A stretch of DNA of 64,000 nt from assembly GCA_043813585.1 (NCBI GenBank), contig JBDRKW010000005.1, positions 3,409 to 67,408 on the forward strand. The letters run 5' to 3'. Position numbers and translations under genes: made by a program. The notes beneath the pieces are model-generated. The model saw only the letters and a list, made by a program, of their open reading frames with translations, did no database searches and had not been told where the DNA came from. Shown here piece after piece: positions 8,935-58,053 of this stretch; the first letter of the stretch is position 1; each line of letters begins with the position of its first letter. This DNA comes from Candidatus Kerfeldbacteria bacterium (GTDB lineage: Bacteria; Patescibacteriota; Patescibacteriia; UBA9570; XYC2-FULL-38-9).

Positions 8935-8950
8935 AGTAAAAATCGGCTGG

Positions 8951-8979
8951 ATAATACCATTTACGGCACGTCGAGTCAA
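8951..8979 (-). promoter_or_regulatory. Sigma70-type promoter of the Wzx-GT4-Wzy-Wzy operon (TTGACT-17-TATTAT, read on the minus strand)
   Basis: -35 complement at 8974-8979 and -10 complement at 8951-8956, with a 17-nt spacer. The TSS would leave only about a 10-nt leader. A divergent plus-strand TTGACA lies at 8990-8995. Confidence 0.5.
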
Positions 8980-9065
8980 CCGAAACACCTTGACATCAGG
9001 GCTGATTTTTATTACACAGAGTGCGCAATATCGGCAAACCTCAATATAGGAAAGGGAGGTGTACA

Positions 9066-16957: not shown

Positions 16958-17512
16958 TCAGTCCTCTACCTCGACAACTTCAATCTTGCCGTTATGTGAA
17001 CGTTGTGATTTCGGAAGTCGAATAGTCAAAATACCGTTCTCCAGCGCTGCCTTTACCTCGTCGTGCTGTATATCTACCGGAAGGATGATCGACCGGGAAA
17101 AACCGCCCCAGTAGCATTCGCGGATGAAGTAGTCGTCGTCGCGCGTCTCTTCCATCTTGTGCCTGCGCACGCCTTTGATGGTGATCATGTCGCCGTTCAT
17201 GTCGATCTCCAGGTCTTCTTTTTTCACGCCTGCAACCGTAGAGACGATGATGATTTCGTCGTCGGTCTGGAACACGTCTACCGCCAACTGTCCGTCGTAG
17301 CTGATGTTCTCCTGCATCCACTCCTCGTCAATATCCTGGTCATCGTACGTTTCGGTGATGTTGCGTTTGGAACCCTGCGCTGCGGATTGCTTCAGGGTGA
17401 CGAGGGAGCTGTCTGTGTCGCCGAACGCGGTGCGGAAAAAGTCCTCGTTGTACTCGACGTCGTCGAATGCGAGCTCTTTTATTTTCTTTGAAAATGTTTC
17501 CGGGTCTGGCAT
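16958..17512 (-). CDS. Hsp20/alpha-crystallin family small heat shock protein
   Basis: A conserved ACD region (DVFQTDDEIIIVSTVAGVKKEDLEIDMNGDMITIKG...ILTIRLPK). Start at 17512 is preceded by an AAGGAGG RBS and a TTGTAC-17-TATAAT promoter. Confidence 0.8.
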   Translation of the reverse strand: MPDPETFSKKIKELAFDDVEYNEDFFRTAFGDTDSSLVTLKQSAAQGSKRNITETYDDQDIDEEWMQENISYDGQLAVDVFQTDDEIIIVSTVAGVKKEDLEIDMNGDMITIKGVRRHKMEETRDDDYFIRECYWGGFSRSIILPVDIQHDEVKAALENGILTIRLPKSQRSHNGKIEVVEVED

Positions 17513-17645
17513 ATGTTTTCCTCCTTTATTCACACGTTATTATACAATTTTATGGAGTCGTGTACAAGATATCCACCGGTTGTTGCCACCTTTTCCACGG
17601 TTCTCGGTGGATAACTCGGTTTTTGGCTGATGTTGCGGCGGAATT

Positions 17646-17687: not shown

Positions 17688-17759
17688 GCCCGCATCGTCT
17701 AATGGTTAGGACATCAGGTTTTCATCCTGGCAATCGGGGTTCGATTCCCCGTGCGGGTG
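17688..17759 (+). tRNA. tRNA-Glu (anticodon UUC); CCA not encoded
   Basis: Hand-folded cloverleaf: acceptor GCCCGCA/TGCGGGT, D-stem GTCT/GGAC, anticodon stem TCAGG/CCTGG with loop TTTTCAT, T-arm CGGGG-TTCGATT-CCCCG. Confidence 0.85.
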
Positions 17760-18469: not shown

Positions 18470-19996
18470 TCAATCACGCGGGCGTTCCAGCACAAATATA
18501 ATGAAAAGAATGATAAACCCTATCCCTAAGGGATGACTTAAGTATGGAGTAGTAACGTGGACGAATAGAAGACACAGCAGTCCGGTCATGAAACTTAATG
18601 CAAGTACTTTGCGGCCGGTAGTCTGTGCACTGCGGACAACCCTTGCCCCGTGCCAGAACAGCACAACAAACAACACAAGGTAGGCGAGCAACCCAAGCAC
18701 GCCAAGTTCATACAGTAGATCCAAATACCCCCACTCAAATGCAAAAGTCGTGTATTGGTCCGTCCCCATCATGTCGATAGCGCGAGGATCGTCAGTGGTA
18801 TAGGTGAGCGTTGCGCCAAACCCGGAACCGGTATACAGATGCTCATTCACCACGTCCCACAACGGGGCGAGTATGTTCATGCGCGTACTGATAGCCGGTT
18901 CTTCTGCTGTATATGAGGCGCGTTCGCAGACAATCTCCGCAAAAAAGAACCCTTTCCATTGTTCGCCAAGCAGCGGCACGTTCGTAAGCAGGAACAGAAC
19001 AATAAGCGACGCAGCACCGGTTGCAACCGTTAGCACCGCAGCGTGACCAATGTCTTTCCATCGCCATAATTTCGTGCTGACGAATGCGATTGCCATTGCA
19101 ACCATGCTGACTACAAGCGCCAGCCAGAACGAACGCGACCAGCTTGTAATGATAATTGTCAACAGAAGCGCGGAAAACGCGCCGTACACAAACACCTGCT
19201 TTGTCCGTCTTTCTTGCCATGTGGCTACGCAAAATGCGAACGCCACAAAGAAAAACAGCAGGTGAAATATGTGCGACTGAAAGAAAATGCGGTAAAACTG
19301 CTCATGCGTCGGGGTGATTTCGCCCACGCCGGTAACGCGTATCCATCGGTACACTGTGCCATTGAACGCGGTGATGGAATGCGCAAACGTAAATAGCAAC
19401 AACAATGTTGTTACAGACAGCGCAATCATCGCACCGGCCGCCACCTGCAGCAGCCGTTTCAACTGATCTTTTGAAACAATACTTTGGGCAGCCGGTAGAA
19501 TTAATCCCAGAAAGAGGTAGCCGTTCATATCCAGAAAGACGGTGTATAGGTCGTTGCCATGCAGAACGCCGGAAACAGTTCCGAACGCAATGCAACATGT
19601 AAACAAAAGAATCGCTTCCCATACCGGCAGTTGAAAAAAACACACCTGGCGCATGCGAATTGCATGCATGCAGAACGCCAGCATAACCGCAGAGAAAATC
19701 GCGTGACGAACCGAAACCGCAGTGCCTGCAATGTCGATCGCAAACAGATAACCTTTGCTCCCGACCAGGAGCTCGGCAAACGCAATGTATACGCCATACT
19801 CCAGGCGCCATAAAGCAAGCGCAAACGTTGCCAGAGCAATAACCGCAAACGCAACCGTGCCGACAGCGGGATAGACAAAGACGGCAAAGGAAAGGAATTC
19901 AATGCATGCGACCGCAATAAGCGTGACGACCGTCACTTTGCCGAAAAAAAGCAGCCCCTCCCGGCCAGCCGGCTGTTGTGTTATCAGCTTGGGCAT
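18470..19996 (-). CDS. O-antigen ligase family (Wzy_C) membrane protein, third paralog
   Basis: RMNILAPLWDVVNEHLYTGSGFGAT and FAFEWGYLDLLYELGVLG match Wzy_C motifs. Start set to MPKLITQQ at 19996, where the ATG overlaps the upstream stop. Confidence 0.55.
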   Translation of the reverse strand: MPKLITQQPAGREGLLFFGKVTVVTLIAVACIEFLSFAVFVYPAVGTVAFAVIALATFALALWRLEYGVYIAFAELLVGSKGYLFAIDIAGTAVSVRHAIFSAVMLAFCMHAIRMRQVCFFQLPVWEAILLFTCCIAFGTVSGVLHGNDLYTVFLDMNGYLFLGLILPAAQSIVSKDQLKRLLQVAAGAMIALSVTTLLLLFTFAHSITAFNGTVYRWIRVTGVGEITPTHEQFYRIFFQSHIFHLLFFFVAFAFCVATWQERRTKQVFVYGAFSALLLTIIITSWSRSFWLALVVSMVAMAIAFVSTKLWRWKDIGHAAVLTVATGAASLIVLFLLTNVPLLGEQWKGFFFAEIVCERASYTAEEPAISTRMNILAPLWDVVNEHLYTGSGFGATLTYTTDDPRAIDMMGTDQYTTFAFEWGYLDLLYELGVLGLLAYLVLFVVLFWHGARVVRSAQTTGRKVLALSFMTGLLCLLFVHVTTPYLSHPLGIGFIILFIIFVLERPRD

Positions 19997-19997
19997 G

Positions 19998-20882
19998 TTA
20001 CCAGTGGGTAATGTCCTTATTACAGGTATCGTTTGGAATTTCGGTCCAGTCGATCGGGTCATCGCCGCAAATCTCGCGGCACATCTTCAGGTTCATTTTC
20101 CCACGGCGCAGGTCATGGCGCGTTTGCACAAATTCCGGATCCCACCAAATCTCGGCCAACGATTGTTCCGCAACATTCCCGAACGGGTGCCGCACAAAAA
20201 AATCATTCGTACACACGACATTGCCCGCATAATCCACCGCAATTTCATCAGAAACATAGTAGCAACACTTGAATTTATGCGCTTTGTTCACCGGCACCGT
20301 GCCGCCCCGTTCAAAAATCCCGACATTGTCGAGTAACTGCAGGGTGATATACTTCTTCGATTTATCGTCTTCCACCAGCTCCTGCACGACCTTGGGCCAG
20401 TACGCCATATGCTTAGTGATCACGAGCCCGTCCGTGCCTGCATCTATCAGGTCATGGAACAGTTCTTTCGTCAGCGCAACAGCGTTCGTGTGAATGATGA
20501 TAGAAGATTTCGGAAGTTTTTCCCGCACGTACGCCATGAGCGACGGCAGGCGTTTGTCTATCAATGGGTCGCCGTAAAAATGCGGGGAGATCCGCCCTTT
20601 ATATTCAAATGGGAATGCCACCAGGTCATCAATGATCTTTCGGAACATCTCTTCAGTCATGAAATGGTCGCCCCGGTCATAGCGCGCTACGGCACAGTAG
20701 GTGCATTTAAGGTTACAGCGCGAGTTGGTTTCAATATCGAGTGCGGTGAAAATGTCGCTCCGTCCGTAGGTGGCCAGTTTATTGAGCGAGTTGTAGTACC
20801 CGCGTAATGCCGGTTTAACAGCTTCAGGCGACAACCGACGCGCAGCACGATATACAGGATTAAGCAGATATGGTAAACGCAT
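19998..20882 (-). CDS. Radical SAM protein with SPASM/twitch-like C-terminal Cys cluster
   Basis: CNLKCTYC (CX3CX2C) near the N-terminus. C-terminal KFKCCYYVS...YAGNVVCTND...KMCREIC...C cluster. Confidence 0.7.
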   Translation of the reverse strand: MRLPYLLNPVYRAARRLSPEAVKPALRGYYNSLNKLATYGRSDIFTALDIETNSRCNLKCTYCAVARYDRGDHFMTEEMFRKIIDDLVAFPFEYKGRISPHFYGDPLIDKRLPSLMAYVREKLPKSSIIIHTNAVALTKELFHDLIDAGTDGLVITKHMAYWPKVVQELVEDDKSKKYITLQLLDNVGIFERGGTVPVNKAHKFKCCYYVSDEIAVDYAGNVVCTNDFFVRHPFGNVAEQSLAEIWWDPEFVQTRHDLRRGKMNLKMCREICGDDPIDWTEIPNDTCNKDITHW

Positions 20883-30158: not shown

Positions 30159-32738
30159 ATGGAAAAAGCCTACGACCCCAAACAATACGAAGACGACATC
30201 TATAAAAAGTGGGAAGACTCCGGCTATTTTAATCCGGACAACCTGCCGGGCGACCGCACGGAGCCGTTTTCCGTGATGATGCCGCCGCCGAACGTGACCG
30301 GCGTTCTGCACCTCGGCCACGCGTTTGAGCATTCATTGATGGACACAAAGGTCCGTTTTGAGCGCATGCGCGGAAAGAAAGCCCTGCTTCTGCCGGGAAC
30401 AGACCATGCGGCGATCGCAACGCAAGCCCGCGTCGAAGACAAGCTGAAAAAAGAAGGCGTGGAGAACCCGCGCCAGGAATACGGCCGTGAGAAGCTATTG
30501 GAGATCATCCGCGAGTTTGCTGAAGAATCCAAAGCGACAATGCTGGGCCAGATCCGGAGAATCGGGACGAGCTGTGATTGGTCGCGCCTCGCATATACGT
30601 TTGACGAAGATCGCTCCCGCGCAGTAAACGCGATGTTCAAGAAGATGTATGATGACGGGCTGATTTATCGCGGGTACCGCGTGGTGAACTGGTCGGTTGC
30701 GGGGCAGTCAACCTGTTCGGAAGATGAGCTGGAATACAAAGAACAACCGACGACAATCTACACGTTTAAGTATTCAAAGGATTTTCCGATCGCGATTGCA
30801 TCCACACGGCCGGAAACAAAGCTGGGCGACACGGCAGTTGCGGTCCATCCGGAAGACAAGCGCTATAAAAAGTTCATCGGTGAGGAATTCACTGTTGACG
30901 TGGGTGCTGCTACGCCTCTTACAATTAAAATAATCGCTGACGAATCAGTCGACCCGGAATACGGTACGGGCGCGCTCGGCGTGACGCCGGCGCACAGCGC
31001 GATCGACTTTGAGATGTATGAGCGCAATAAAGAGATTGGTTTGAATCAGGTGATCGGCACGGACGGCAGGATGACCGACAACGCCGGGAAGGCCTATAAA
31101 GGGCTGACAACAGAAGAAGCGCGTGCGAAGTTCGTACAGTGGCTGCGCGATCAGAAATTATTAGTCAACGAAGAAGAGGCAATGCATAGCGTCGGCGCAT
31201 CAGACCGGTACAAGGATGTGGTTGAGGCGCTGCCCATGGACCAGTGGTTCGTGGACGTGAACAAGGAAATTCCCGGCCGCGGCAAGTCGCTGAAAGAGCT
31301 CATGAAGGACGCAGTGACGACCGGCCACAACGGTGACAAGTCGAAGAAGGTGGAGATCGCACCTGAACAGTTTCTCAAGACCTACCTGCACTGGATCGAG
31401 AACCTGAAGGACTGGTGCATCAGCCGCCAGATCTGGTGGGGCCACCGGATTCCGGTATGGACGAAAGGAGAAGATGTGCATGTGGGAGCGGAAGCGCCGG
31501 AGGGCGGCGGCTGGACGCAGGACGAAGACACGCTGGACACCTGGTTCTCCTCCGGCATGTGGGCATTTTCCACGCTCGGTTGGCCGGAAGAAACGATCGA
31601 CCTCCAAACATTTTTTCCGACGTCCTGGATGCAGATGGGATATGAAATTTTGTTCCTTTGGCTTGCGCGCATGATTCTTATGTCGACGTACGGCCTTGAT
31701 GACATCCCGTTTACGCAGGCGCACATCCACGGCATCCTTCGCGACAAGAGAGGAAAGAAGTTTTCAAAAACGGCAGGAAACGGGGTTGACCCGATTGAGA
31801 TGGCGAACAAGTACGGCACGGATGCGCTGCGCTTCAGCCTGCTTAAAGGCATTGCGCCGGGCAACGATTCGCGTTTTTATGAAGAGAAGGTGGAGGACGG
31901 GCGCAACTTTGTGAATAAGCTCTGGAATATGGCGCGGTTTATCTCCATGCAGGAGATCGATGAAGCCGGCAAGCCGTCGATTGCGGACCGGTGGATCCTG
32001 TCTCGGCTGAATGCTGTTATAAGAGAGGTGGAACAGATGTATGAAAACGACCAGTTCGGCCAGGCTGCAGACACGTTGTACAATTTCACCTGGCATGAAT
32101 TTGCCGATTGGTATATTGAGATCACCAAGGTGCAGCCGAACCCTGCAGTCACACGCGACGTGCTGGAACAGATTATAAAGCTCGCGCACCCGCTTATCCC
32201 GTTCGTGACTGAAGCGATCTGGAAGGAGCTTGGTAAAGAATCGATGCTCATTATTGAACAGTGGCCGGAAGCGGACGAGTCATTAATTGATAACGCAGCA
32301 GAAAAGCAACTCGAAGACGTAAAAGAATTGATTTCTTCCATACGTCACATCAGAAAAGAGTACAACATCAAACCAAAACAGGAGCTCGAAGCATTAAAGA
32401 GCGATATTGATGATGAAGATGCAGCACTTGTCCAACAACTCGCATCAGTTTCATTTGTCGCAGAAAAGAAGTTCACAAATAGTGCCACCGCAGTAGCAGG
32501 TGACAAGCAAATTATCATCCCGCTTGACGGAGTGATTGATGTTGAAGCAGAAAAGAAGCGCATAGAAAGAGAGATTAAAGCAAAAGAAGGATACCTGGCC
32601 GGACTAGAGAAGAAGCTGGGCAACAAGAAGTTCCTGGAGAGCGCTCCAGAAGAGGTTATCGAACAAAACAAGCAATCAAAGGCCGAAGCAGAGGCCGAAT
32701 TGAGCAATTTACAGCAAGCACTTGCAAATTTGTCGTAA
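30159..32738 (+). CDS. valS: Valine--tRNA ligase
   Basis: PPPNVTGVLHLGHA (HIGH), KFSKT (KMSKS) and a C-terminal coiled-coil. 859 aa. Confidence 0.9.
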   Translation: MEKAYDPKQYEDDIYKKWEDSGYFNPDNLPGDRTEPFSVMMPPPNVTGVLHLGHAFEHSLMDTKVRFERMRGKKALLLPGTDHAAIATQARVEDKLKKEGVENPRQEYGREKLLEIIREFAEESKATMLGQIRRIGTSCDWSRLAYTFDEDRSRAVNAMFKKMYDDGLIYRGYRVVNWSVAGQSTCSEDELEYKEQPTTIYTFKYSKDFPIAIASTRPETKLGDTAVAVHPEDKRYKKFIGEEFTVDVGAATPLTIKIIADESVDPEYGTGALGVTPAHSAIDFEMYERNKEIGLNQVIGTDGRMTDNAGKAYKGLTTEEARAKFVQWLRDQKLLVNEEEAMHSVGASDRYKDVVEALPMDQWFVDVNKEIPGRGKSLKELMKDAVTTGHNGDKSKKVEIAPEQFLKTYLHWIENLKDWCISRQIWWGHRIPVWTKGEDVHVGAEAPEGGGWTQDEDTLDTWFSSGMWAFSTLGWPEETIDLQTFFPTSWMQMGYEILFLWLARMILMSTYGLDDIPFTQAHIHGILRDKRGKKFSKTAGNGVDPIEMANKYGTDALRFSLLKGIAPGNDSRFYEEKVEDGRNFVNKLWNMARFISMQEIDEAGKPSIADRWILSRLNAVIREVEQMYENDQFGQAADTLYNFTWHEFADWYIEITKVQPNPAVTRDVLEQIIKLAHPLIPFVTEAIWKELGKESMLIIEQWPEADESLIDNAAEKQLEDVKELISSIRHIRKEYNIKPKQELEALKSDIDDEDAALVQQLASVSFVAEKKFTNSATAVAGDKQIIIPLDGVIDVEAEKKRIEREIKAKEGYLAGLEKKLGNKKFLESAPEEVIEQNKQSKAEAEAELSNLQQALANLS

Positions 32739-32858
32739 ATATTGTCTGACATGTGGATAGATCTGCTTTAATAAATATTAAATATGTACTATAATAGGGT
32801 CGTACTGACTCCGCACACAGACGGAGCAGTTTTTCTAGTTATCAAATAGGGTGTTAAA

Positions 32859-34835
32859 ATGACACAGGGAGTACAAACAAAACGCGCCGCATGGATAATT
32901 GTTTTTCTGGCGGTGTTTTTTATTCCATTAACAGCAAGCGCAGCAACTATCGTCCACGACGACATAGGCGACTTCACAGGCACATTCTCAGACACCCAGT
33001 GGGACGCAGGAAACACCTGGATCGAGCTGGACGGCACAGGAATGGGCAACGGCACAGGAACCTATTCATCGCAAAATGTTGACGCAGGATCAGCATCGTC
33101 CTGGAATTCATTATCCTGGACCCCGGAACAGCCGTTCTTCAAAGAACTGCCCAACAGCGGGAGTTCAGAATCCGGCTATCCAAACGGAAACGCCAACATG
33201 AGCAGCAATGAATTACTCATGCACATGAATGCAACCTCTTATATCGATGTAGAAGACACGTCCGGCAACACCAACGATGGAACATTTGTCGATTCCTACA
33301 CGAAATTGCTGATGCACATGGACAACACCCTCCTGCCCGATAACTCCCTAAGCGGGCATACTGTAAATATATTTTCAGATGTTGCGAGAAGCAGTGCGCA
33401 ATCAAAATATGGCGGATTCAGTGCCTTATTCAATGCCTCGGGAGATTATTTAAGCATGCCGGCAAGCAGTGATTGGGATTTTTCAGGCGGAGATTTTACG
33501 ATTGATTTCTGGTTTTACCTGAACCTGGCAGGTATTCAGCAAACACTCATCAATAGTTGGGTGAATTACCTTGATCCTGACAATTGGCATATCTATATCA
33601 CTACCGCTAATAGGTTAGCTTTCTTTTCGCACGGGTATACTGGTGATGCTGGGGTTGTCGGAACTCATGACGTAACTCCAGATGCATGGCATCATGTGGC
33701 GTATGTCTATGACGGGACTAATGTGAAAACGTATCTTGATGGGGTACTTGACGCTTCCGACGGGACTGCTCCGGGCAGTAATTCAGACCAGGCAATAGTC
33801 ATAGGTATAAATGATGCCAACAAATCAACTCAACCCCTATATGGCTATCTCGATGAGGTGAGGCTTTCAAAAGGCATAGCCAGGTGGACTTCCGACTTCA
33901 CGCCGCCGGTGCTCGCTGCCGGAAATGTGAGCTGGCCGGCAGGCACGCTGAATAACGCCTTGAGCTTTGATGGAACGAACAACTGGGTCACCGTTCCCGG
34001 CGACAGCAGCCTGGATATTACCAGCAACCTCACTGTTGAAGGATGGATATACCCCACCGACCTGACGCAGGACGGGATGATCGCGTCAAAGGAATGGTGC
34101 GATGCGTCAAGCAACTACGCCTATTCACTTGGTTATAATGCAAACGGGAAACTGCAGTTTATTTCAGACGACAGCGGAGACTGTGCTTCTGTGGATGAAT
34201 ACACGTCGGATAACATCGTTCTGACTGAAGACGAATGGAACCATGTTGCCGCTGTGCATACGAATTCATCGGTTACTCTTTATGTAAACGGGACTGCGGT
34301 TGCCGGTTCATTCACTGAGGGCGCTGCAGGAGCCATCCAGACAAATGATGAACCGCTTCGGTTAGGCGTGAACAAAGCCGCTTCAGGCTATGACAGCTTT
34401 TTTGTTGGGTCAATGGATGAAGTGGACGTGTTCAGCCGCGCACTGACCGCAGGCGAAATTGAGGACCATTACCGGCGCGGGGCAAACCGTTTGCAGATCC
34501 AGGTGCGGTCCTGCAATGACGCAGCATGCGACACAGAGACATTTAGGGGACCGGACGGAACAGCAGGAACCTACTACACAGAGTTGAGTAATACGACAAC
34601 TACAACACCGTCGTTAACCCTCACGAACGTCCCGGATAACCAATATTTTGAATACCAGGTCACCTTTGATACTGATGACGCAGTGCTCGGCCCGGAATTA
34701 AACGATATCACTATGGATTTTGGAGAAGGAGGCGGCGGAGACGCTATTCCTGAATTTTCATTACTAACATTATTTATCGCGTTCGGCTTGGGACTGGGTA
34801 CATTCGGTTATATCCGTCTTAAACAGGCGAAATGA
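32859..34835 (+). CDS. Secreted protein with two LamG/ConA-like lectin domains and a C-terminal PEF/PEP-CTERM-like sorting signal
   Basis: Signal peptide. LDEVRLSKGIARW and MDEVDVFSRALTAGEIEDHY are LamG signatures. C-terminus IPEFSLLTLFIAFGLGLGTFGYIRLKQAK. Confidence 0.6.
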   Translation: MTQGVQTKRAAWIIVFLAVFFIPLTASAATIVHDDIGDFTGTFSDTQWDAGNTWIELDGTGMGNGTGTYSSQNVDAGSASSWNSLSWTPEQPFFKELPNSGSSESGYPNGNANMSSNELLMHMNATSYIDVEDTSGNTNDGTFVDSYTKLLMHMDNTLLPDNSLSGHTVNIFSDVARSSAQSKYGGFSALFNASGDYLSMPASSDWDFSGGDFTIDFWFYLNLAGIQQTLINSWVNYLDPDNWHIYITTANRLAFFSHGYTGDAGVVGTHDVTPDAWHHVAYVYDGTNVKTYLDGVLDASDGTAPGSNSDQAIVIGINDANKSTQPLYGYLDEVRLSKGIARWTSDFTPPVLAAGNVSWPAGTLNNALSFDGTNNWVTVPGDSSLDITSNLTVEGWIYPTDLTQDGMIASKEWCDASSNYAYSLGYNANGKLQFISDDSGDCASVDEYTSDNIVLTEDEWNHVAAVHTNSSVTLYVNGTAVAGSFTEGAAGAIQTNDEPLRLGVNKAASGYDSFFVGSMDEVDVFSRALTAGEIEDHYRRGANRLQIQVRSCNDAACDTETFRGPDGTAGTYYTELSNTTTTTPSLTLTNVPDNQYFEYQVTFDTDDAVLGPELNDITMDFGEGGGGDAIPEFSLLTLFIAFGLGLGTFGYIRLKQAK

Positions 34836-36331
34836 CGAAGAGGAGACTTCTTCAATATGGAGTAATAGCTATTCTGGCGGTTTTCCCAACCGCTGTTTTT
34901 GCCGTTAATTTGTATGTTGATGATGATGGCTGCGCAGACAGCAGTAACTGCCAGACCGCCGGCAGCCCATGCTGCACGATCAATTACGCCATCGGCCAAG
35001 GCTCGAGCGGCGACAGTATGAACATTGCCGCAGGTACGTATTATGAAGATGTGAACCTGATTAAGGAAATTGACCTGCTCGGGGCAGGACGGACACAAAC
35101 TATTATTGATTGCTCAGGAGCTTCGCCTGTTGACCATTGTATCGACGCCAATGCCCTAAGTGACGCGGTAACGATTCAGGATTTACAGGTTACAGGTGCC
35201 GGAACCGGCAAAGCGGGAATCTGGGTTAGCCCTTCCGCAGCTGCGTGCCCGGTTGTTACGCGCATCTGGGCAAACCGAAATTATGTAAATGGCATTGATT
35301 CACGTAATTGTGCGAATTATACGCTTGATGACGTTTGGGCAACGCAGAATGGCACCAGCACGAACAGCGGTATTCAAGTAATAATGCATTCATCCGGCAC
35401 GTTGCAGAATTCAGAACTGGCCGGCGGCCCGATGGCCCTGGTAAGTACGTCAACCGGCGACGGCATTGCCAATATTTATCAGTCGCATATTTCAAACGGA
35501 GACGGCCAGTACCCCCCGTCATTACTGGCGTTCAATAATATTTTTGCATGGGGCGGCCCTCCCGCCTACATATTCGGTTCACCGCTGTACTATAACAACA
35601 TGTTCACCACCAACCAATTGAACCTGTATAATGTGGTGGCTCCGGTTTTCTACAATAATATGTTTTATGGAGCTGAAGGCTATGCGCTCAGAAGACTGCT
35701 GGGCGCGAATTGCGGCACCTTTGATTACAACAGCTGGTACAACAATGGGGGTGATATATATCTCGACCAGTGTTCAAAAGGAGTAAACACAAACAGTGAC
35801 GACCCGAATTTTGTGAAGAACTACACCGGTACAGTCGCTTCGCTGACAGAAAGCGGCAGCAATGCACACGACTTCGTGACAGACATCAACGTGAGCGGCA
35901 GTCCGTGGACAGCGCACCAGTTCATGATGGGCGGATATTACTTTGTCCCTGACGATGATACGCGGCATATATGGTATATCATCGATAACGATGAAAATAC
36001 ATTAAGCGTTGCGCGCGCGGAAACGGGATACGCGCCGTCTGACTATGGAGTAGGGGCTTCTGATACGTTCTATATCACGCAATACCTGCGCGACGATGCC
36101 TGGACCGGAGTTGATACGGCCTATGATTTAAGCGGAACGGTTGATATTGATATTTTCGCCAACGCTCGGCCGCTCGGCCTTGGGTACGACATCGGACCAA
36201 TGGAAGACGGGCCGCAAGATGAGGGAGGCAGTCCGGTACCGGAATATTCTTTGCTGACTTTGGTTATCGCGTTTGGCCTGGGATTAGGGGCATTTGGATA
36301 CCTGAGGAAAACTACAATAGACCGATTTTAG
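34832..36331 (+). CDS. Secreted right-handed beta-helix-like protein with PEF/PEP-CTERM-like sorting signal
   Basis: Signal peptide. N-terminal cap ...CQTAGSPCCTINYAIGQGSSGDSMNIAAGTYYEDV. C-terminus VPEYSLLTLVIAFGLGLGAFGYLRK. Overlaps the upstream gene by 4 nt. Confidence 0.55.
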   Translation: MTKRRLLQYGVIAILAVFPTAVFAVNLYVDDDGCADSSNCQTAGSPCCTINYAIGQGSSGDSMNIAAGTYYEDVNLIKEIDLLGAGRTQTIIDCSGASPVDHCIDANALSDAVTIQDLQVTGAGTGKAGIWVSPSAAACPVVTRIWANRNYVNGIDSRNCANYTLDDVWATQNGTSTNSGIQVIMHSSGTLQNSELAGGPMALVSTSTGDGIANIYQSHISNGDGQYPPSLLAFNNIFAWGGPPAYIFGSPLYYNNMFTTNQLNLYNVVAPVFYNNMFYGAEGYALRRLLGANCGTFDYNSWYNNGGDIYLDQCSKGVNTNSDDPNFVKNYTGTVASLTESGSNAHDFVTDINVSGSPWTAHQFMMGGYYFVPDDDTRHIWYIIDNDENTLSVARAETGYAPSDYGVGASDTFYITQYLRDDAWTGVDTAYDLSGTVDIDIFANARPLGLGYDIGPMEDGPQDEGGSPVPEYSLLTLVIAFGLGLGAFGYLRKTTIDRF

Positions 36332-36408
36332 AATTTGTGCTATAATACTAATGCGTTTATTGGGAGTTTCAACGTCTCCTAATTGTTTATTTTGATACTA
36401 TCAATAAA

Positions 36409-37791
36409 ATGGAAACAATACTAAAACAAAAAAGATTCGGGCTGGCGACACTAGTTGTTCTCTGCGTACTCGTACTTTTACCGAAATCTGCTTCTGCAAC
36501 TGAACTTTGGGTCGATTCTTGTATGGGAGACGACGATGGTGGTGCTAATGACTGCCAGACTGAAGCATTACCTTGTGCAACGTTAGGTCAGGCAGTATCA
36601 GAGATTACAGCAAATAACGGCGACCAGGTATGGGCAACAAGCGGCTGCATGAACGCGGCTTGTGGAATAATGCAATGCGGAGCAGCAGTTGACTTTACTG
36701 AAATGGTTTCGCTGGGTGCTGCACAAACAGGAAATGGCCCAGGCAATCAGACGCGTTTTGATTCCTGGGAATCGGCCGGTGGAAAAATTCGCGAAATGCC
36801 TGTTATTGATTGTGAAAATACGCGTGATGCAGGCTTCTGGATCGGTAATAACCCTGGTGACCCTGCAAATTATATCGGAGTTGGTACTTTTGAAATAAAG
36901 AATTGCCTTAATAGCGGTGTCATAGGGCTTCCAAATTCGAATTATGGTGACATAGAGAAAGTATATTCACACGACAACGCTGCAGACGGCATACGGATAG
37001 ACGGATCAACCGCTTGGTATTTTTATGTAAACACACTCACGGATAACGGTGGCTATGGTATTCATTACAACTCCGCAATCAACTCCAAAGCAGACGCGAA
37101 TTTGATTTCCGGAAATGACATAGGAATTTACATGTCAGTAAATTCCACTGGTCACGACATTACGAATAATTGGATTGAAGGCAGTACATCATACGGCATT
37201 CAAGTTGTGGGAAATAGCAACAATATAGTTAACAACACCACCTACGAAAACGGAACTGGAGAAATTCGGGTTGGCAATGATGTAGATGCACCTGTAAGTA
37301 ACACAACAATATTGAATAACATTCTTAACGTTCAATCCAATTATGGAATAATGGTTGAATGTAACGCGAATACAAATTTGAGCTCAAATTTTAATGATAT
37401 TTACAGAGATGGCGGCGGCATGACCGGGTGGTGGGGCCCGAGTGGCGGATGTACCGGCATTAACAGCCCTAATCTTGGTAGCTGGCAGGCAAACAGCGGT
37501 GGCGATGCAAATTCAATTGAGACAGACCCTGATTTCACGAATCCTGGTGTTGGTCCGGCAATTAATGCGACATCGCCTGCAGTAAATACAGGTACTGATG
37601 CGAGCGCATGGACGACGACGGATATCCACGCCCAATCGCGTCCTATTGGAGCCGGCTGGGAAATGGGCGCAGATGAGCGCTACGGCCCTGCAGAAGGCCC
37701 TGGTATTCCCGAATTCTCTCTTGTAACTTTAGTTATTGCATTTGGACTAGGACTCGGAACCTTCGGATACGTCCGCATCAAAAAATCATAA
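36409..37791 (+). CDS. Secreted parallel beta-helix repeat protein with PEF/PEP-CTERM-like sorting signal
   Basis: Repeated NxxG.GI...S beta-helix rungs (GNDIGIYMS, GSTSYGIQVVGNSNNIVNNTT, NYGIMVECNAN). C-terminus IPEFSLVTLVIAFGLGLGTFGYVRIKKS. Confidence 0.55.
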   Translation: METILKQKRFGLATLVVLCVLVLLPKSASATELWVDSCMGDDDGGANDCQTEALPCATLGQAVSEITANNGDQVWATSGCMNAACGIMQCGAAVDFTEMVSLGAAQTGNGPGNQTRFDSWESAGGKIREMPVIDCENTRDAGFWIGNNPGDPANYIGVGTFEIKNCLNSGVIGLPNSNYGDIEKVYSHDNAADGIRIDGSTAWYFYVNTLTDNGGYGIHYNSAINSKADANLISGNDIGIYMSVNSTGHDITNNWIEGSTSYGIQVVGNSNNIVNNTTYENGTGEIRVGNDVDAPVSNTTILNNILNVQSNYGIMVECNANTNLSSNFNDIYRDGGGMTGWWGPSGGCTGINSPNLGSWQANSGGDANSIETDPDFTNPGVGPAINATSPAVNTGTDASAWTTTDIHAQSRPIGAGWEMGADERYGPAEGPGIPEFSLVTLVIAFGLGLGTFGYVRIKKS

Positions 37792-37798
37792 ATATATA

Positions 37799-37888
37799 AA
37801 ACGAGCCCTGTAAACAGATTACTCGTACGAGCGATTGGCCCGCCAGGGTTGCCAGCGAGTGAGTAATCTGTTGGAAGGGGCTCGTTTT
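37799..37888. terminator. Long imperfect inverted repeat (about 30-bp arms) acting as a bidirectional terminator between the PEF-CTERM gene and pilB
   Basis: aaacgagcccctgtaaacagattactcg ... cgagtgagtaatctgttggaaggggctcgtttt. Confidence 0.5.
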
Positions 37889-37892
37889 GTAT

Positions 37893-39677
37893 TTACGCTT
37901 TGGCGACGCGGAAGACCTCGTCGAGCAGGGTGATTCCTTCTATTGCTTTTAACACGCCGTCCTGGCCCATAGTGACCATGCCGGCATCGTGCAGCAGCGT
38001 CTTCATGTCATATTCGGACGCTTTCCCGGAGAGCACCTGTTTCTCGATCTCCGGTATCATGGTGAAAATTTCATAAATGCCGACCCGGCCCTTGAACCCG
38101 GTGTCTTTGCAGGTCTGGCAGCCTTCGCCTTTGTACCACATGACCTTGTCCACGTCCGGCCTCTCTTCCCCGGACGCTTCCGGTATGGCGGCAACCCATT
38201 CTTTCGCGCGCTGGATCTGTTCGGCAGAAGGCGTATATTCCTTTTTACAGTCCGCGCAGATGCGGCGCACCAGGCGTTGGCCGATGACCGCATTCAATGC
38301 AGGTGCCAAGAGCGCCGGATTCACGCCCATGCCCAGGAAACGCGGGATAGCGCCGGTGGCGTCGTTCGTATGGATGGTAGAGAGCATGAGGTGGCCGGTG
38401 AGAGCCGCCTGGATAGCCGTATCGGCGGTTTCCAGGTCGCGGATTTCACCAACCATGACAATGTCCGGGTCCTGGCGCAGGATCGCGCGCAGCCCCAGCG
38501 CGAAGGTGTATTTTTTTGAATGGTCGATCTGGCTCTGGACAATGCCCTTCAGCTTATACTCAACCGGATTTTCCAGCGTGATGATTTTATTCTCCGGCTT
38601 ATTCAGCTTGTTCAAAATGGCGTAGAGCGTCGTCGTCTTTCCGGAACCGGTCGGACCGGTGGTAATGATCATGCCGTTCGGCTTTTCTATCTCAATCTTG
38701 AGGCGTTCAAACGCCAGCGGGCGCATGCCGAGGTCTTCAAACGACAGCCCCACGGATGACGATTTCAGCAGGCGGAACACGATGCTTTCTCCGTACGCGG
38801 ACGGAAGCGTGGAAACGCGAATATCCAGCTTATCGTCTTCCCCGAGCTCAATCGAGATGCGGCCGTCCTGCGGGACTGCTGTAATGTTCAGCTTCAGCCC
38901 GGCGATTCCCTTGATGCGGCTGACCAGCTTCGGCAGTTTTTCCGGCTCCATGTGCGCAACCACAGTCAGTACGCCGTCGACGCGAAAGCGCAGCACCGCG
39001 CTCTCCTCTTCCGCTTCAATATGGATATCAGAAGAACCGGCGGTCATCGCCATGGCAATGATCATGGCAAACGCTTCGGTCATGTTTACCTCGTCAATCC
39101 GCTTGTCAAAAATATCAAAAGACGTCAGTTCTTTTGCATACGCATCCAGCTGCTTTTTGGTGATATGTACGCCGCTCTCGATCTTGCGGATTTTTGCGAC
39201 TGTCTTGTACAGCTTGATCGCCTGGTCAAAGCTGTGCTGCGATATCAGGTAAAGCTTCACCTTCGAACCCTCATGCTCCTTTTGCAGCTGCGCAATAATC
39301 TCATTGATTTTCGGGTTGTCCGGATCAACCGTTGCAATGCGGATCTGGTCTTCCAAACGGAAAAATGCAACCGCTTTATTGTCGGTCGCGTCCTTTTCCG
39401 GAATCAATGATATCACCTCCGGGCCGATGGGGAACGCTTCCAGGTCAAAATACGGGATGCCGAACAGCTCCGCTTTGGCGCGCGTTTCGTCTTCCAGCGT
39501 CTGCAGGCGGATCTGCTCCATCTTCTCGCCCACATTTTCCTGCGCTTTTTCAGAACGCGTCTCTACAGGAGCCTCGCTTTCTTCGTCGTCGTCGACTGGC
39601 TGCTGTGCGCCGGCTCCTGCCGCACTGCCGGGCGTTTTCGGGATCAAATCCTCTATTGATGAAAAACCGTTGCTCAT
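37893..39677 (-). CDS. pilB: Type IV pilus assembly / type II secretion ATPase (PilB/GspE family)
   Basis: GPTGSGKTTTLYAIL Walker A, VGEIRDLETA, a C-terminal CxxC...CxxC zinc motif (CADCKK...CQTCKDTGFKGRVGIYE) and an N-terminal GSPII-like domain. TATACT -10 lies 7 nt upstream of the ATG. Confidence 0.8.
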   Translation of the reverse strand: MSNGFSSIEDLIPKTPGSAAGAGAQQPVDDDEESEAPVETRSEKAQENVGEKMEQIRLQTLEDETRAKAELFGIPYFDLEAFPIGPEVISLIPEKDATDNKAVAFFRLEDQIRIATVDPDNPKINEIIAQLQKEHEGSKVKLYLISQHSFDQAIKLYKTVAKIRKIESGVHITKKQLDAYAKELTSFDIFDKRIDEVNMTEAFAMIIAMAMTAGSSDIHIEAEEESAVLRFRVDGVLTVVAHMEPEKLPKLVSRIKGIAGLKLNITAVPQDGRISIELGEDDKLDIRVSTLPSAYGESIVFRLLKSSSVGLSFEDLGMRPLAFERLKIEIEKPNGMIITTGPTGSGKTTTLYAILNKLNKPENKIITLENPVEYKLKGIVQSQIDHSKKYTFALGLRAILRQDPDIVMVGEIRDLETADTAIQAALTGHLMLSTIHTNDATGAIPRFLGMGVNPALLAPALNAVIGQRLVRRICADCKKEYTPSAEQIQRAKEWVAAIPEASGEERPDVDKVMWYKGEGCQTCKDTGFKGRVGIYEIFTMIPEIEKQVLSGKASEYDMKTLLHDAGMVTMGQDGVLKAIEGITLLDEVFRVAKA

Positions 39678-41726: not shown

Positions 41727-42878
41727 TTACGCAACCCAGAGGCTCATGGAATACGCGACGACTCCTATCATTTGCAGCATAATGAATGACCATTGGATGA
41801 ACCGGAACGCAAATTCCCGGTTCTTGAGCCAGCGCGCCAATGCGATGAACAGCGGAAACAGCAGCAGCATGTAGCGGGGGAAGGATGACAGGTCGCCGGA
41901 GAGCGCCGTCACCAGGCCCAGCAGGAGTGTGAATATAAAAAGCGACCGTTTAGTATATTTGTACACAAGAGGAAGCCCGGCAAGAAATCCGATAAAGAAT
42001 ACCCGGTCAATAATGCTGGTGTTAAGAGCATGAAACGACGGTTCCAGATGGATGAAGTTGCGCGTGATCCAGTCAACCGGATGAAGCAGATTTTCAATGC
42101 TGTAATTCGTGTAGAAAAAGCCCTGCGCCATAAAGCCGGAAAAGGCCGAGCCGGTTGAAAAGTGCATGATGCAAAGATATGCGGCAACGCCGCCGGCAAA
42201 CGCGGTAATGATCATGGCAGAACGCATCAATTTTCCGCGCTTCCACCGCACGAGCGAGCGGTACAAGAGCGGGACAGCTGTAAAGACGCCCTGGGGCCTG
42301 GTGAGCGGCAGGAGGAACATCGCAAGATAGGACTTCCACGCATCCTTATGACCCAAAAAATAAAAGGACGCGAGCACCAACAGGATGAAAAGGGATTCCG
42401 TATATACCAAATGGAGGTAGAACGCGGTCGGGAACGCCATGAACAGCAGCCCGGCAAGCATCGCAACCCGGTCGCCATAGGCGCGCCGGGCAAGCAGGAA
42501 CAGCATAGCCACGGCCGCAAAGGAGAAGACGGTTGAAAGAAGCAGGCCTGTAATAAGCGTATGGTTGAATGTGAGTACATTCAGCAGGCGGATCAGCAGC
42601 GGGTACAGCGGATAGAATGCATTGCTGATGTGGCCGGCCGAATACCATTCTTGCGCCAGGTAGATATAGTGCTGCGCATCCCAGGTGGAGAACGCAGTTG
42701 CCAGCGTTGGGGTTGATTCTTCCGGCCAGTGGAAGTTTGCATTGAATTCCACCTCGCGAATCCCGTACGTAGAAAATGTGATCACGACCAACAAAAAAAT
42801 AATTGCCTTGTAGCTTGCGCAGGCAATGAGCAATCGCGCCAGCGGCCGGTCATGCAGAATAGGCATTAGGAATTTCAT
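41727..42878 (-). CDS. GT-C fold membrane glycosyltransferase, PIG-V/mannosyltransferase-like
   Basis: Multi-TM protein. WDAQHYIYLAQEWY resembles the WDxxHYxxIAxxGY motif of Mannosyl_trans2 proteins. Confidence 0.4.
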   Translation of the reverse strand: MKFLMPILHDRPLARLLIACASYKAIIFLLVVITFSTYGIREVEFNANFHWPEESTPTLATAFSTWDAQHYIYLAQEWYSAGHISNAFYPLYPLLIRLLNVLTFNHTLITGLLLSTVFSFAAVAMLFLLARRAYGDRVAMLAGLLFMAFPTAFYLHLVYTESLFILLVLASFYFLGHKDAWKSYLAMFLLPLTRPQGVFTAVPLLYRSLVRWKRGKLMRSAMIITAFAGGVAAYLCIMHFSTGSAFSGFMAQGFFYTNYSIENLLHPVDWITRNFIHLEPSFHALNTSIIDRVFFIGFLAGLPLVYKYTKRSLFIFTLLLGLVTALSGDLSSFPRYMLLLFPLFIALARWLKNREFAFRFIQWSFIMLQMIGVVAYSMSLWVA

Positions 42879-54735: not shown

Positions 54736-54770
54736 CGGCGGCTGTTTGCCGGGGGCAGGTTGCAGTCAAA

Positions 54771-54792
54771 CAGGGCAATGCCCTGTTTTTTT
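54771..54792 (+). terminator. Intrinsic terminator (cagggc-aat-gccctg-T7)
   Basis: A perfect hairpin followed by T7. It overlaps the -35 TTGACA (54791-54796) of the PurM-like gene promoter (TACCAT at 54814-54819). Confidence 0.6.
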
Positions 54793-54875
54793 GACACTGC
54801 GCCTTGTTTTCCGTACCATGGTACGGCTCTGTGAAAAAACAACATCTTTCGGGAAACCGGAAAGGAGTCAGGTAG

Positions 54876-55934: not shown

Positions 55935-56023
55935 CACGCAGAACAACAACACCGCCAAGGGGCGGCAGACACAAACCGACCTGCAGCACACGGCTCAGGC
56001 GGTTCTTTTTTTACGGAAAACCC

Positions 56024-58043: not shown

Positions 58044-58053
58044 AAAGCCGGCA

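What the first reader, a model, noticed from the sequence alone, without database searches (positions are those of the whole stretch)
32859..37791. Three tandem secreted LamG/beta-helix proteins share a PEF/PEP-CTERM-like sorting signal; no cognate sortase is recognised
The C-termini align as PE[FY]SL[LV]TL[FV]IAFGLGLG[TA]FGY[IVL]R[LIK]K, that is, a Pro-Glu motif, a TM helix and a basic tail. This is the architecture recognised by exosortase/archaeosortase systems (PEP-CTERM, PEF-CTERM, PGF-CTERM).

The exact variant (IPEFSLLTL...FGYxR) may define a distinct family. The processing enzyme is not obviously encoded in this window; the 383-aa multi-TM protein at 41727-42878 is the only weak candidate.
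Basis: partly seen in the sequence, partly recalled or inferred. Interest (0 to 1): 0.6.

Follow-up and report, generated by a model that had tools for sequence, protein, structure and literature searches.

The report
PEF-type exosortase sorting tails, CPR bacterium
Three neighbouring secreted surface proteins of an ultra-small (Candidatus Kerfeldbacteria) bacterium end in the same "PEF + membrane helix + basic" tag, and the enzyme predicted to recognise it is an exosortase/archaeosortase-family protein encoded elsewhere in the same genome; this is a further, not yet catalogued, member of a well-known kind of protein-sorting system.

Summary
Three tandem genes (32859-34835, 34832-36331, 36409-37791, + strand) encode proteins with N-terminal signal-peptide-like starts. 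All three end in [IV]PE[FY]SL[LV]TL[FV]IAFGLGLG[TA]FGY.R. The tail is the only similarity between the LamG protein and the other two. It is kept by purifying selection: 11-16 of 26 tail codons differ only synonymously.

The tails match no curated sorting-signal model (PEP-, PEF-, PGF-CTERM, LPXTG).
- At least six proteins of the source MAG (Candidatus Kerfeldbacteria), on four contigs, carry the tail.
- One of them (MFH1426355.1) has the accession next to a 341-aa archaeosortase/exosortase family protein (MFH1426356.1). That enzyme has the invariant Cys/Arg/His motifs.
- In related Patescibacteria contigs, the orthologues sit directly beside this enzyme and a GT4 glycosyltransferase.
- Tail type follows the enzyme clade, not passenger-domain similarity.
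- More distant enzyme relatives in DPANN archaea sit beside [IV]PEF-tailed proteins. One of those tails passes the PEF-CTERM model.

The 383-aa membrane protein at 41727-42878 is GT-C-like, not a sortase.

Verdict: a new, uncurated member of the exosortase/archaeosortase and C-terminal-tag kind, closest to ArtC/PEF-CTERM. Tail cleavage and the anchoring chemistry are inferred, not shown.

The parts
32859..34835 (+). p1, 658 aa: secreted protein with two Laminin_G_3 (LamG/concanavalin-like) domains and the PEF tail. It equals MFH1426023.1.
   Evidence: ORF. Pfam Laminin_G_3 E 1.7e-48, two stretches. Identity to P0003/MFH1426023.1. A 75%-identical orthologue lies in L042, three genes from an exosortase gene.
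32859..32942 (+). Putative Sec signal peptide of p1 (aa 1-28, ...PLTASA|A).
   Evidence: Read from the sequence: basic n-region (K8, R9), hydrophobic core, A-S-A. This is inference; no predictor was available.
34749..34832 (+). p1 sorting tail: PEFSLLTLFIAFGLGLGTFGYIRLKQAK (motif, TM helix, basic end).
   Evidence: (90.7 bits to the tail profile).
34832..36331 (+). p2, 499 aa: secreted protein, probably beta-helix-like, with the PEY tail. It equals MFH1426024.1 (locus tag ABIG66_01170).
   Evidence: ORF. Accession. Weak NosD match. N- and C-terminal similarity to p3. The 82%-identical orthologue P0015 passes choice-of-anchor Q (25.9 vs 25) and lies two genes from an exosortase gene.
34832..34903 (+). 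Putative signal peptide of p2 (aa 1-24, ...TAVFA|V).
   Evidence: Read from the sequence; inference.
36239..36328 (+). p2 sorting tail: PEYSLLTLVIAFGLGLGAFGYLRKTTIDRF.
36409..37791 (+). p3, 460 aa: secreted right-handed beta-helix protein with the PEF tail. It equals MFH1426025.1.
   Evidence: ORF. Pfam Beta_helix E 5.6e-10. 100% identical to P0001.
36409..36498 (+). Putative signal peptide of p3 (aa 1-30, ...PKSASA|T).
   Evidence: Read from the sequence; inference.
37558..37677 (+). Choice-of-anchor-Q-like segment of p3 (aa 384-423), directly upstream of the linker and tail.
   Evidence: NF041518 scores 24.6 bits against a cutoff of 25. The same segment passes the cutoff in relatives P0006, P0015 and two L042 proteins.
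37708..37788 (+). p3 sorting tail: PEFSLVTLVIAFGLGLGTFGYVRIKKS.

Best explanation
The three proteins are substrates of an exosortase/archaeosortase-family enzyme encoded elsewhere in the same Candidatus Kerfeldbacteria genome.

Proposed course of events:
1. Each protein is exported through Sec by its N-terminal signal peptide (inferred).
2. It is held transiently in the cytoplasmic membrane by the C-terminal helix. The basic residues stay inside. The Gly/Pro/acidic linker and the [IV]PE[FY]S motif sit at the outer membrane face (inferred from the sequence).
3. The polytopic enzyme (P0017, MFH1426356.1, 341 aa; invariant Cys222 in P-C-S-G, Asn266/Arg269, His290 in H-T-N-A-G-W) recognises the motif together with the adjacent helix. 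It cleaves the tail off and passes the mature protein to an acceptor on the cell surface. This step is by analogy with Haloferax ArtA, where cleavage and ArtA-dependent lipid attachment were shown. The acceptor here is unknown.

The result is surface display of lectin-like (LamG) and beta-helix proteins. For an ultra-small, probably episymbiotic bacterium these are plausibly adhesins or glycan-binding or glycan-degrading proteins.

Shown here: the shared modular tail under purifying selection; its presence on at least six proteins of the genome; an enzyme of the right superfamily in the genome; gene adjacency of enzyme and tail-bearing genes in relatives; and tail type tracking enzyme clade.

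Inferred: export, topology, cleavage and the anchoring chemistry.
For: 1. Tripartite tail on non-homologous passenger domains. The tail is under purifying selection.

2. The tail profile finds only C-terminal matches in family members among 1.84 billion representatives: P0001, P0003, P0004, P0006 and P0008. P0004 is MFH1425947.1, P0008 is MFH1426281.1 and P0002 is MFH1426355.1. All are named Candidatus Kerfeldbacteria, and their accessions bracket those of the window proteins, MFH1426023-025. That gives at least six members on four contigs.

3. P0017, 'archaeosortase/exosortase family protein [Candidatus Kerfeldbacteria bacterium]', is MFH1426356.1. It scores 55.8 bits on TIGR04178 against a cutoff of 23 and has PF09721. 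Cys, Asn/Arg and HTNAGW are invariant across 10 CPR and DPANN homologues. The AlphaFold model is an all-helical polytopic protein, pLDDT 81.

4. In related contigs the tail-bearing LamG and beta-helix genes flank the enzyme gene and a GT4 gene. L041/L042 hold five tailed genes; L043/L044 and L068 also show this.

5. Tail type follows the enzyme clade.
- Clade A (P0017/P0016, 60% identical) goes with ...A[FI]GLGLGTFG tails.
- Clade B (P0018/P0020/P0021, 78-84% identical) goes with PEFT..T..L.L..G.G.I.LI tails.
- Passenger orthologues between the clades are 75-82% identical, but their tails are only 28-40% identical.

6. More distant enzyme relatives (27-37% identity) in DPANN archaea and metagenome contigs also sit beside [IV]PEF[SGT]-tailed proteins. 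There are eight in tandem in a Woesearchaeota contig, and one of them passes TIGR03024 PEF-CTERM at 24.1 vs 23.

7. Choice-of-anchor Q occupies the pre-tail position.

8. The best hit of the tail profile outside the family, apart from Gly/Leu-repeat proteins, is a classical PEP-CTERM repeat protein (41 bits).

9. Literature: ArtC pairs with PEF-CTERM (PMC5244752). ArtA-dependent tail cleavage and lipidation, and the sortase-like triad, are described in PMC6098224.
Against: - No curated sorting-signal model matches the window tails, even at E <= 10.
- The enzyme fails every curated subfamily cutoff. The best is ArtC at 64.2 vs 100.
- The enzyme is not in the window. Its placement in the same genome rests on consecutive GenBank accessions, the organism name and contig lengths; I could not read that contig.
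- No exosortase of any kind has been shown biochemically to cleave a PEF tail in bacteria.
- According to the 2018 review PMC6098224, exosortases themselves had not been analysed experimentally.
- The acceptor in a bacterium of this envelope type is unknown.
- The very strong conservation of the helix (IAFGLGLGxFG) exceeds what most known sorting tails show. It could reflect an additional role.
Confidence: 0.8

Rival explanations
1. The tail is simply a permanent C-terminal transmembrane anchor. It may be a glycine-zipper (GLGLG) helix that lets these surface proteins associate with each other. It is never cleaved, and the exosortase-family gene nearby in relatives serves something else, for example polysaccharide export.
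For: - The helix is conserved more strongly (IAFGLGLGxFG invariant in four proteins) than needed for a mere stop-transfer segment.
- No curated sorting model matches it.
- Cleavage is not shown.
- The enzyme sits beside a GT4 glycosyltransferase in relatives.
Against: - The part that stays constant across enzyme clades and across CPR and DPANN is the extracytoplasmic [IV]PEF[ST] motif. The helix is replaced wholesale between genomes. A helix-packing role predicts the opposite.
- Tailed genes and the enzyme gene are adjacent in at least four independent CPR contig types and in DPANN contigs.
- Tail type tracks enzyme clade rather than passenger ancestry.
Confidence: 0.12
2. The shared tail is a by-product of recent tandem duplication or gene conversion among neighbouring genes and has no function of its own.
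For: The three genes are tandem. p2 and p3 also share N-terminal and pre-tail similarity.
Against: - Tail DNA is only 63-68% identical, and 11-16 of 26 codons differ synonymously.
- p1 is unrelated to p2 and p3 outside the tail.
- The same tail occurs on three further proteins on other contigs, and in another organism.
Confidence: 0.02
3. The tails are substrates of a classical (LPXTG-type) sortase, or are tied to the type IV pilus / type II secretion machinery whose PilB/GspE-like ATPase gene lies just downstream (37893-39677, - strand).
For: - CPR bacteria are generally regarded as having Gram-positive-like envelopes (my own knowledge).
- The LamG protein weakly resembles a TafC family fimbrial protein (73.5 bits vs cutoff 410).
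- The ATPase gene is adjacent.
- Some archaeal relatives' tails graze the LPXTG anchor model through their helix plus basic end.
Against: - The tails contain no LPXTG-like motif, and the window tails give no hit to TIGR01167.
- The ATPase neighbour is not conserved in any related locus, whereas the exosortase gene is.
- The TafC match covers only the LamG domain and is far below the cutoff.
Confidence: 0.04

Closest known systems
PEF-CTERM / archaeosortase C (ArtC; TIGR03024 / TIGR03762), described for methanogens and ANME archaea
   Same: - Same signature tripeptide (P-E-F) at the start of a C-terminal helix, followed by basic residues.
- ArtC is the best-scoring specific model for the CPR enzymes (64-69 bits).
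- DPANN relatives of the enzyme sit beside tails that reach or approach the TIGR03024 cutoff.
- The pairing ArtC <-> PEF-CTERM is stated in PMC5244752.
   Different: - The host is a bacterium (Candidatus Kerfeldbacteria, Patescibacteria), not an archaeon.
- The window tails give no TIGR03024 hit at E <= 10.
- The enzyme is below the ArtC cutoff of 100.
- The helix has its own genome-specific consensus (IAFGLGLGTFGY).
PEP-CTERM / exosortase (EpsH, XrtA; TIGR02595 / TIGR02602 / TIGR03109)
   Same: - Bacterial system with the same tripartite tail logic: [VI]PE-x-S, helix, Arg/Lys.
- Many unrelated secreted proteins per genome carry the tail.
- A glycosyltransferase is a neighbour. The GT4's best NCBIfam hit is a PEP-CTERM/XrtA-system glycosyltransferase family, far below its cutoff.
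- The tail profile cross-hits a classical PEP-CTERM protein.
   Different: - The motif is PEF/PEY, not PEP.
- The tails fail TIGR02595.
- The enzyme scores 36.8 vs 105.55 on TIGR02602 and 19.3 vs 208 on XrtA.
- The host is a small-genome CPR lineage, not one of the organisms for which PEP-CTERM was described.
PGF-CTERM / archaeosortase A (ArtA) of Haloferax volcanii
   Same: - This is the only member of the superfamily with experimental support for tail cleavage, motif dependence, critical conserved residues and enzyme-dependent lipid attachment (PMC6098224).
- The equivalent conserved residue types (Cys, Arg, His) are invariant in the CPR/DPANN enzymes.
   Different: - The motif differs (PGF).
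- There is no TIGR04126 hit on the window tails.
- The lipid attached in Haloferax is an archaeal prenyl lipid, which a bacterium would not be expected to use (inference).
LPXTG / sortase A of Gram-positive bacteria
   Same: Same overall tripartite C-terminal design and the same end result: covalent surface display after cleavage.
   Different: The enzyme is non-homologous. There is no LPXTG-like motif and no TIGR01167 hit for the window tails.

Membership tests
Exosortase/archaeosortase-dependent C-terminal sorting signals (generic kind) | Tripartite extreme C-terminus: short signature motif, a helix of about 20 hydrophobic residues, then a basic cluster, ending at or near the stop codon. | tested here: met
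   PE[FY]S, then LLTLxIAFGLGLGxFGY, then R/K-rich end, 27-30 residues from motif to stop.
Exosortase/archaeosortase-dependent C-terminal sorting signals (generic kind) | Carried by several otherwise unrelated secreted proteins of one genome. | tested here: met
   LamG and beta-helix passengers share only the tail. At least six proteins with MFH14259xx-MFH14263xx accessions carry it. The N-terminal signal peptides were read by eye only.
Exosortase/archaeosortase-dependent C-terminal sorting signals (generic kind) | Co-occurrence with an exosortase/archaeosortase gene in the same genome. | tested here: met
   P0017 is MFH1426356.1, accession-adjacent to tail-bearing MFH1426355.1 on a 25,625-bp contig. 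Gene adjacency is seen directly in relatives L041-L044 and L068. The same-genome assignment is inferred from accessions, not from reading the contig.
Exosortase/archaeosortase-dependent C-terminal sorting signals (generic kind) | The tail is removed from the mature protein by the enzyme. | not testable with these tools
   This needs proteomics or genetics.
Exosortase/archaeosortase superfamily (TIGR04178 signature, PF09721), applied to the off-window enzyme P0017 | Score above the curated cutoff, and conserved Cys, Arg and His. | tested here: met
   TIGR04178 scores 55.8 vs 23. PF09721 is precomputed. C222, N266/R269 and H290-T-N-A-G-W are invariant in 10 sequences.
PEF-CTERM (TIGR03024) | Tail scores at least 23 bits on the model. 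| tested here: not met
   No hit at E <= 10 for the three window tails. Related CPR tails give none either. One Woesearchaeota tail passes at 24.1, and others reach 11.7-16.7.
Archaeosortase C (TIGR03762) | Enzyme scores at least 100 bits. | tested here: not met
   P0017 scores 64.2, P0016 68.6 and P0020 50.0. It is the best specific model but stays below the cutoff.
PEP-CTERM (TIGR02595) / exosortase EpsH-XrtA (TIGR02602, TIGR03109) | Tail at least 16 bits; enzyme at least 105.55 (TIGR02602) or 208 (XrtA). | tested here: not met
   No tail hit; the P0006 tail reaches 10.8 bits. The enzyme scores 36.8 and 19.3.
PGF-CTERM (TIGR04126) / ArtA | Tail at least 24.5 bits, with a PGF motif. | tested here: not met
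   No hit. The motif is PEF/PEY.
LPXTG cell-wall anchor (TIGR01167) / sortase | LPXTG-like motif before the helix, and a model hit. | tested here: not met
   No motif in the sequence and no hit for the window tails.
Choice-of-anchor Q domain (NF041518) | At least 25 bits, located just upstream of a C-terminal anchor. | tested here: inconclusive
   p3 scores 24.6, just under the cutoff, and p2 gives no hit. The p2 orthologue P0015 scores 25.9, P0006 26.0, and two L042 proteins 33.7 and 39.1.

The most novel reading that the evidence does not exclude
The [IV]PEF tag and its roughly 320-340-aa enzyme form one system shared by the two radiations of ultra-small symbionts, CPR bacteria and DPANN archaea, possibly exchanged between them. 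In this system each genome's enzyme and the helices of all its substrates co-evolve as a lock-and-key set, so the tails are re-fitted even on passenger genes that are otherwise 75-82% conserved. Because a bacterium lacks archaeal lipids, the anchoring chemistry in the CPR version would have to differ from that of ArtA. The displayed LamG and beta-helix proteins would be candidates for host attachment.
Probability: 0.35. Interest if true: 0.6.

Novelty: new member of a known kind. Interest (0 to 1): 0.4.

Why it matters
Surface proteins are the likely interface between ultra-small CPR bacteria and their hosts. How those proteins are attached is largely unknown.

This finding gives a concrete, testable sorting pathway: a defined tag, a defined enzyme, and a defined set of at least six substrates in one genome. 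It also shows that current curated models miss both the tag and the enzyme subfamily. The substrates are annotated only as 'beta-helix', 'LamG' or 'hypothetical' proteins.

A dedicated pair of models would let such surface proteins be listed across Patescibacteria and DPANN genomes. The genome-specific re-fitting of tails to enzymes is a tidy natural experiment on what exosortases recognise beyond the three-residue motif.

The system is nevertheless a further instance of a kind described many times since 2006. The held literature has no paper joining 'exosortase' with 'Patescibacteria', or 'archaeosortase' with 'candidate phyla radiation'. That says little about novelty beyond this library.

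Tried and rejected
- The look-up of encoding contigs for window proteins and for P0001/P0002: not on record. I could not read the rest of the source contig or the 25.6-kb contig that holds the enzyme.
- Word-indexed protein search with the tail alignment: nothing found, not even the query proteins. A local hmmsearch gives 75-91 bits for those proteins. This null is a limit of the tool, not a result.
- Genome-contig scan with PE[FY]-x8-FG[LF]G[LF]G: 40 hits, all chance. None is C-terminal, and they are scattered over unrelated phyla. The source MAG is evidently not a GTDB species representative, and this exact helix is very rare.
- Search for an exosortase in the window:
  - Eleven membrane proteins were scanned. 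They are Wzy_C/O-antigen-ligase-like (three), a flippase, two PMT_2/GT-C-like proteins, an acyltransferase-3, an SPFH protein and three without a significant family hit.
  - tblastn with 32 exosortase-family proteins found nothing significant.
  - The exception is a weak hit at 17426-17611 (E 0.002-0.3). It comes only from DPANN queries, lies in a non-catalytic segment, is interrupted by a stop codon and overlaps an opposite-strand gene. I judge it to be chance.
- The 383-aa protein as sortase: rejected.
- Link to the PilB-like ATPase: rejected, because the neighbourhood is not conserved.
- AlphaFold of p2 without an alignment: unusable, pLDDT 35.
- Foldseek of the P0017 model against the PDB: no match at E <= 0.001. 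The afdb50 library was unavailable.
- Promoter and terminator scan of 32600-38000: no more sites than in shuffles.
- Haft et al. 2012 (PMC3256604) is not held. The ArtC/PEF-CTERM pairing is therefore cited through PMC5244752.


Full report
**What is there**

The window carries three co-oriented genes: 32859-34835 (p1, 658 aa), 34832-36331 (p2, 499 aa; its ATG overlaps the p1 stop) and 36409-37791 (p3, 460 aa). Each begins with a basic stretch, a hydrophobic stretch and an A-x-A-like site, typical of Sec signal peptides. I read this by eye; no predictor was available.
- p1 has two Laminin_G_3 stretches (E 1.7e-48).
- p3 has a right-handed beta-helix (E 5.6e-10).
- p2 has no Pfam hit. It has a weak NosD-like match and resembles p3 at its N-terminus and just before the tail.

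All three end in a Gly/Pro/acidic linker, then [IV]PE[FY]SL[LV]TL[FV]IAFGLGLG[TA]FGY.R, then a few basic residues. No other ORF of the window has this ending. Other proteins of the window with signal-peptide-like starts lack it.

**Is it more than chance or recent copying?**

p1 has no detectable similarity to p2 or p3 outside the last 30 or so residues. There it is 74-75% identical (E 2e-10 and 2e-12).

The tail DNA is only 63-68% identical. Of 26 tail codons, 11-16 differ synonymously and only 5-8 are identical. The peptide is therefore held by purifying selection.

A profile of the tail was run by HMMER against 1.84 billion representative proteins. It returned five C-terminal matches at E <= 1e-10, plus Gly/Leu-repeat proteins. 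At 41 bits it also returned a classical multi-copy PEP-CTERM protein.

**Known tail families**

The tails alone give no hit at E <= 10 to any NCBIfam or Pfam sorting-signal model. That includes TIGR02595 (PEP-CTERM), TIGR03024 (PEF-CTERM), TIGR04126 (PGF-CTERM) and TIGR01167 (LPXTG). Membership in each of those families was therefore tested and not met.

**Whose genome, and how many members**

p3 is 100% identical to MFH1426025.1, p1 to MFH1426023.1 and p2 to MFH1426024.1. All three are from a 94,281-bp contig of a 'Candidatus Kerfeldbacteria bacterium' MAG.

Three further proteins carry the same tail:
- MFH1425947.1 (822 aa, 133-kb contig)
- MFH1426281.1 (447 aa, 219-kb contig)
- MFH1426355.1 (472 aa, 25.6-kb contig)

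All three are beta-helix proteins with the same organism name. Their accession numbers bracket those of the window. The genome therefore has at least six members on four contigs. This is a lower bound, because the search saw only 50%-identity cluster representatives.

**The enzyme**

The window has no exosortase.
- The membrane proteins scanned are O-antigen-ligase-like, flippase, GT-C/PMT_2-like, acyltransferase-3 or SPFH proteins, or have no significant family hit.
- tblastn with 32 exosortase-family proteins finds nothing significant.

Relatives settle the matter. The 82%-identical orthologue of p2 (P0015) comes from 'Patescibacteria group bacterium' GCA_018822435.1. A tail-bearing protein from a Logan assembly (P0006) was also located. 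Both lie next to a 325-339-aa gene with PF09721 Exosortase_EpsH and a GT4 glycosyltransferase.

Using that enzyme as a query returns P0017, which is 341 aa and 60% identical. It is annotated 'archaeosortase/exosortase family protein [Candidatus Kerfeldbacteria bacterium]' and sits on a 25,625-bp contig. Its accession is MFH1426356.1, the number directly after tail-bearing MFH1426355.1 on a contig of the same length.

Properties of P0017:
- It passes the superfamily signature TIGR04178 (55.8 vs 23).
- It fails every subfamily model. The best is archaeosortase C, 64.2 vs 100.
- Cys222 (P-C-S-G), Asn266/Arg269 and His290 (H-T-N-A-G-W) are invariant across ten CPR and DPANN homologues.
- The AlphaFold model built with that alignment is a confident all-helical polytopic protein (pLDDT 81).
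- No solved structure resembles it.

**Functional coupling of tail and enzyme**

In L042, five genes flank the enzyme gene: one LamG and four of the beta-helix or choice-of-anchor-Q kind. All five end in GVPEFT..T[LM].L.L..G.G.I.LI.K. L068, whose enzyme is 84% identical to that of L042, has the same tail type. L043, whose enzyme is 60% identical to P0017, has the window's tail type (...A[FI]GLGLGTFGF).

Between the window genome and the L042 genome:
- the orthologous passenger domains are 75% (p1) and 82% (p2) identical;
- their tails are only 40% and 28% identical;
- within a genome, tails of unrelated proteins are 78% (window genome) and 61% (L042 type) identical on average.

The helix therefore follows the enzyme, not the ancestry of the protein it is attached to. 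This is what a recognition element would do.

**The wider family**

A metagenome scan with the enzyme alignment gave 16 distant loci (27-45% identity). Four of them have [VAT]PEF[SG]-tailed ORFs beside the enzyme gene.

Named relatives are DPANN archaea.
- In a Woesearchaeota contig, eight small secreted proteins in tandem next to the enzyme end in [IV]PEF[SGT], a helix and basic residues.
- A Nanoarchaeota contig has one such protein.
- One of the Woesearchaeota tails passes the curated PEF-CTERM model (24.1 vs 23). Four others align full-length below the cutoff.

The constant element over this whole range is the [IV]PEF motif. The helix is free to change.

The beta-helix members also carry the 'choice-of-anchor Q' domain immediately before the linker. 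It scores above the cutoff in four relatives and 24.6 vs 25 in p3. By my understanding of how NCBIfam names such domains, they sit upstream of interchangeable C-terminal anchors.

**Mechanism**

By homology to the only experimentally studied member (Haloferax ArtA), I infer the following sequence:
1. Sec export.
2. Transient anchoring by the C-terminal helix.
3. Recognition of PEF plus the helix by the polytopic enzyme.
4. Cleavage.
5. Transfer to a surface acceptor.

For ArtA, the published evidence covers tail cleavage, dependence on the motif, the need for conserved residues, and enzyme-dependent lipid attachment (PMC6098224). The pairing of a PEF motif with ArtC is stated in PMC5244752. 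None of these steps is shown for this system, and the acceptor in a bacterium is unknown.

**Rivals**

A permanent anchor without cleavage remains possible (about 0.12). It explains poorly why the motif is constant and the helix is not. Recent duplication, a classical sortase and a pilus link are each contradicted by tested evidence.

**Novelty and verdict**

The kind of system is well known. What is new:
- Both the tail and the enzyme fall outside all curated subfamily models.
- The host is a CPR bacterium.
- The nearest relatives outside CPR are DPANN archaeal systems.

The held literature has no paper combining 'exosortase' with 'Patescibacteria', or 'archaeosortase' with 'candidate phyla radiation'.

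I file it as a new member of a known kind. Confidence in the sorting-signal reading is about 0.8. Interest is moderate (0.4).

Noticed in passing
window 17426-17611 (+): Six DPANN exosortase-family proteins give weak tblastn hits here (E 0.002-0.3; 25-41% identity over 40-83 aa). They match a non-catalytic helix region. The frame contains a stop codon and overlaps the 5' end of an opposite-strand gene (16958-17533), next to a tRNA gene (17688-17759). The CPR enzymes do not hit it. It is probably chance, but a decayed gene fragment is not excluded.
   Followed up: partly
window 3698-9066, 18470-20062, 41727-42878 and 56061-59085: There is a dense surface-glycan gene set. It comprises three Wzy_C/O-antigen-ligase-like proteins (3698-4948, 4945-6378, 18470-20062), a MOP flippase (7438-9066), two PMT_2/GT-C-like proteins (41727-42878, 56061-58043) and an acyltransferase-3 (58000-59085). 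These could glycosylate, or build the acceptor for, the sorted proteins. In relatives the enzyme gene sits next to a GT4 gene.
   Followed up: no
L041/L042 versus window 32859-36331: Orthologous passenger domains are 75-82% identical between two genomes, while the enzymes are only 54% identical and the tails 28-40%. Either the surface-protein genes moved between lineages and their tails were re-fitted, or the enzyme and tails evolve much faster than the passenger domains.
   Followed up: partly
L063:10595-15279 (Woesearchaeota GCA_026002815.1): Eight tandem genes for small proteins (127-371 aa) with signal peptides and [IV]PEF[SGT] tails lie next to the exosortase-family gene, a 937-aa beta-helix protein, a flippase and three GT4 genes. 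Only one of the tails passes the curated PEF-CTERM model.
   Followed up: partly
L044 and L067 (both from run SRR17165146): One sample holds contigs with both enzyme clades: P0016 of clade A and P0021 of clade B. Organisms with the two tail dialects therefore coexist.
   Followed up: no
window 54000-56000: This is the G+C peak of the window (0.629 against about 0.52 elsewhere). It has long overlapping ORFs on both strands (54531-55991 -, 54746-55918 +, 54876-55934 +). There is no Rfam match at gathering threshold.
   Followed up: no
window 32859-34835 (p1) and L042:2646-4625: The second LamG region matches NF052521 'TafC family fimbrial protein' at 73 bits, far below the cutoff of 410. This is probably shared LamG fold only.
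   Followed up: no
L043:293-1536: A beta-helix gene upstream of P0006 appears frame-shifted. A 385-aa ORF lacks a tail, and an overlapping 82-aa ORF in another frame ends in DVPEFSLITLIVAIGLGLGTFGFVRRR. This is either an assembly error or a pseudogene.
   Followed up: no
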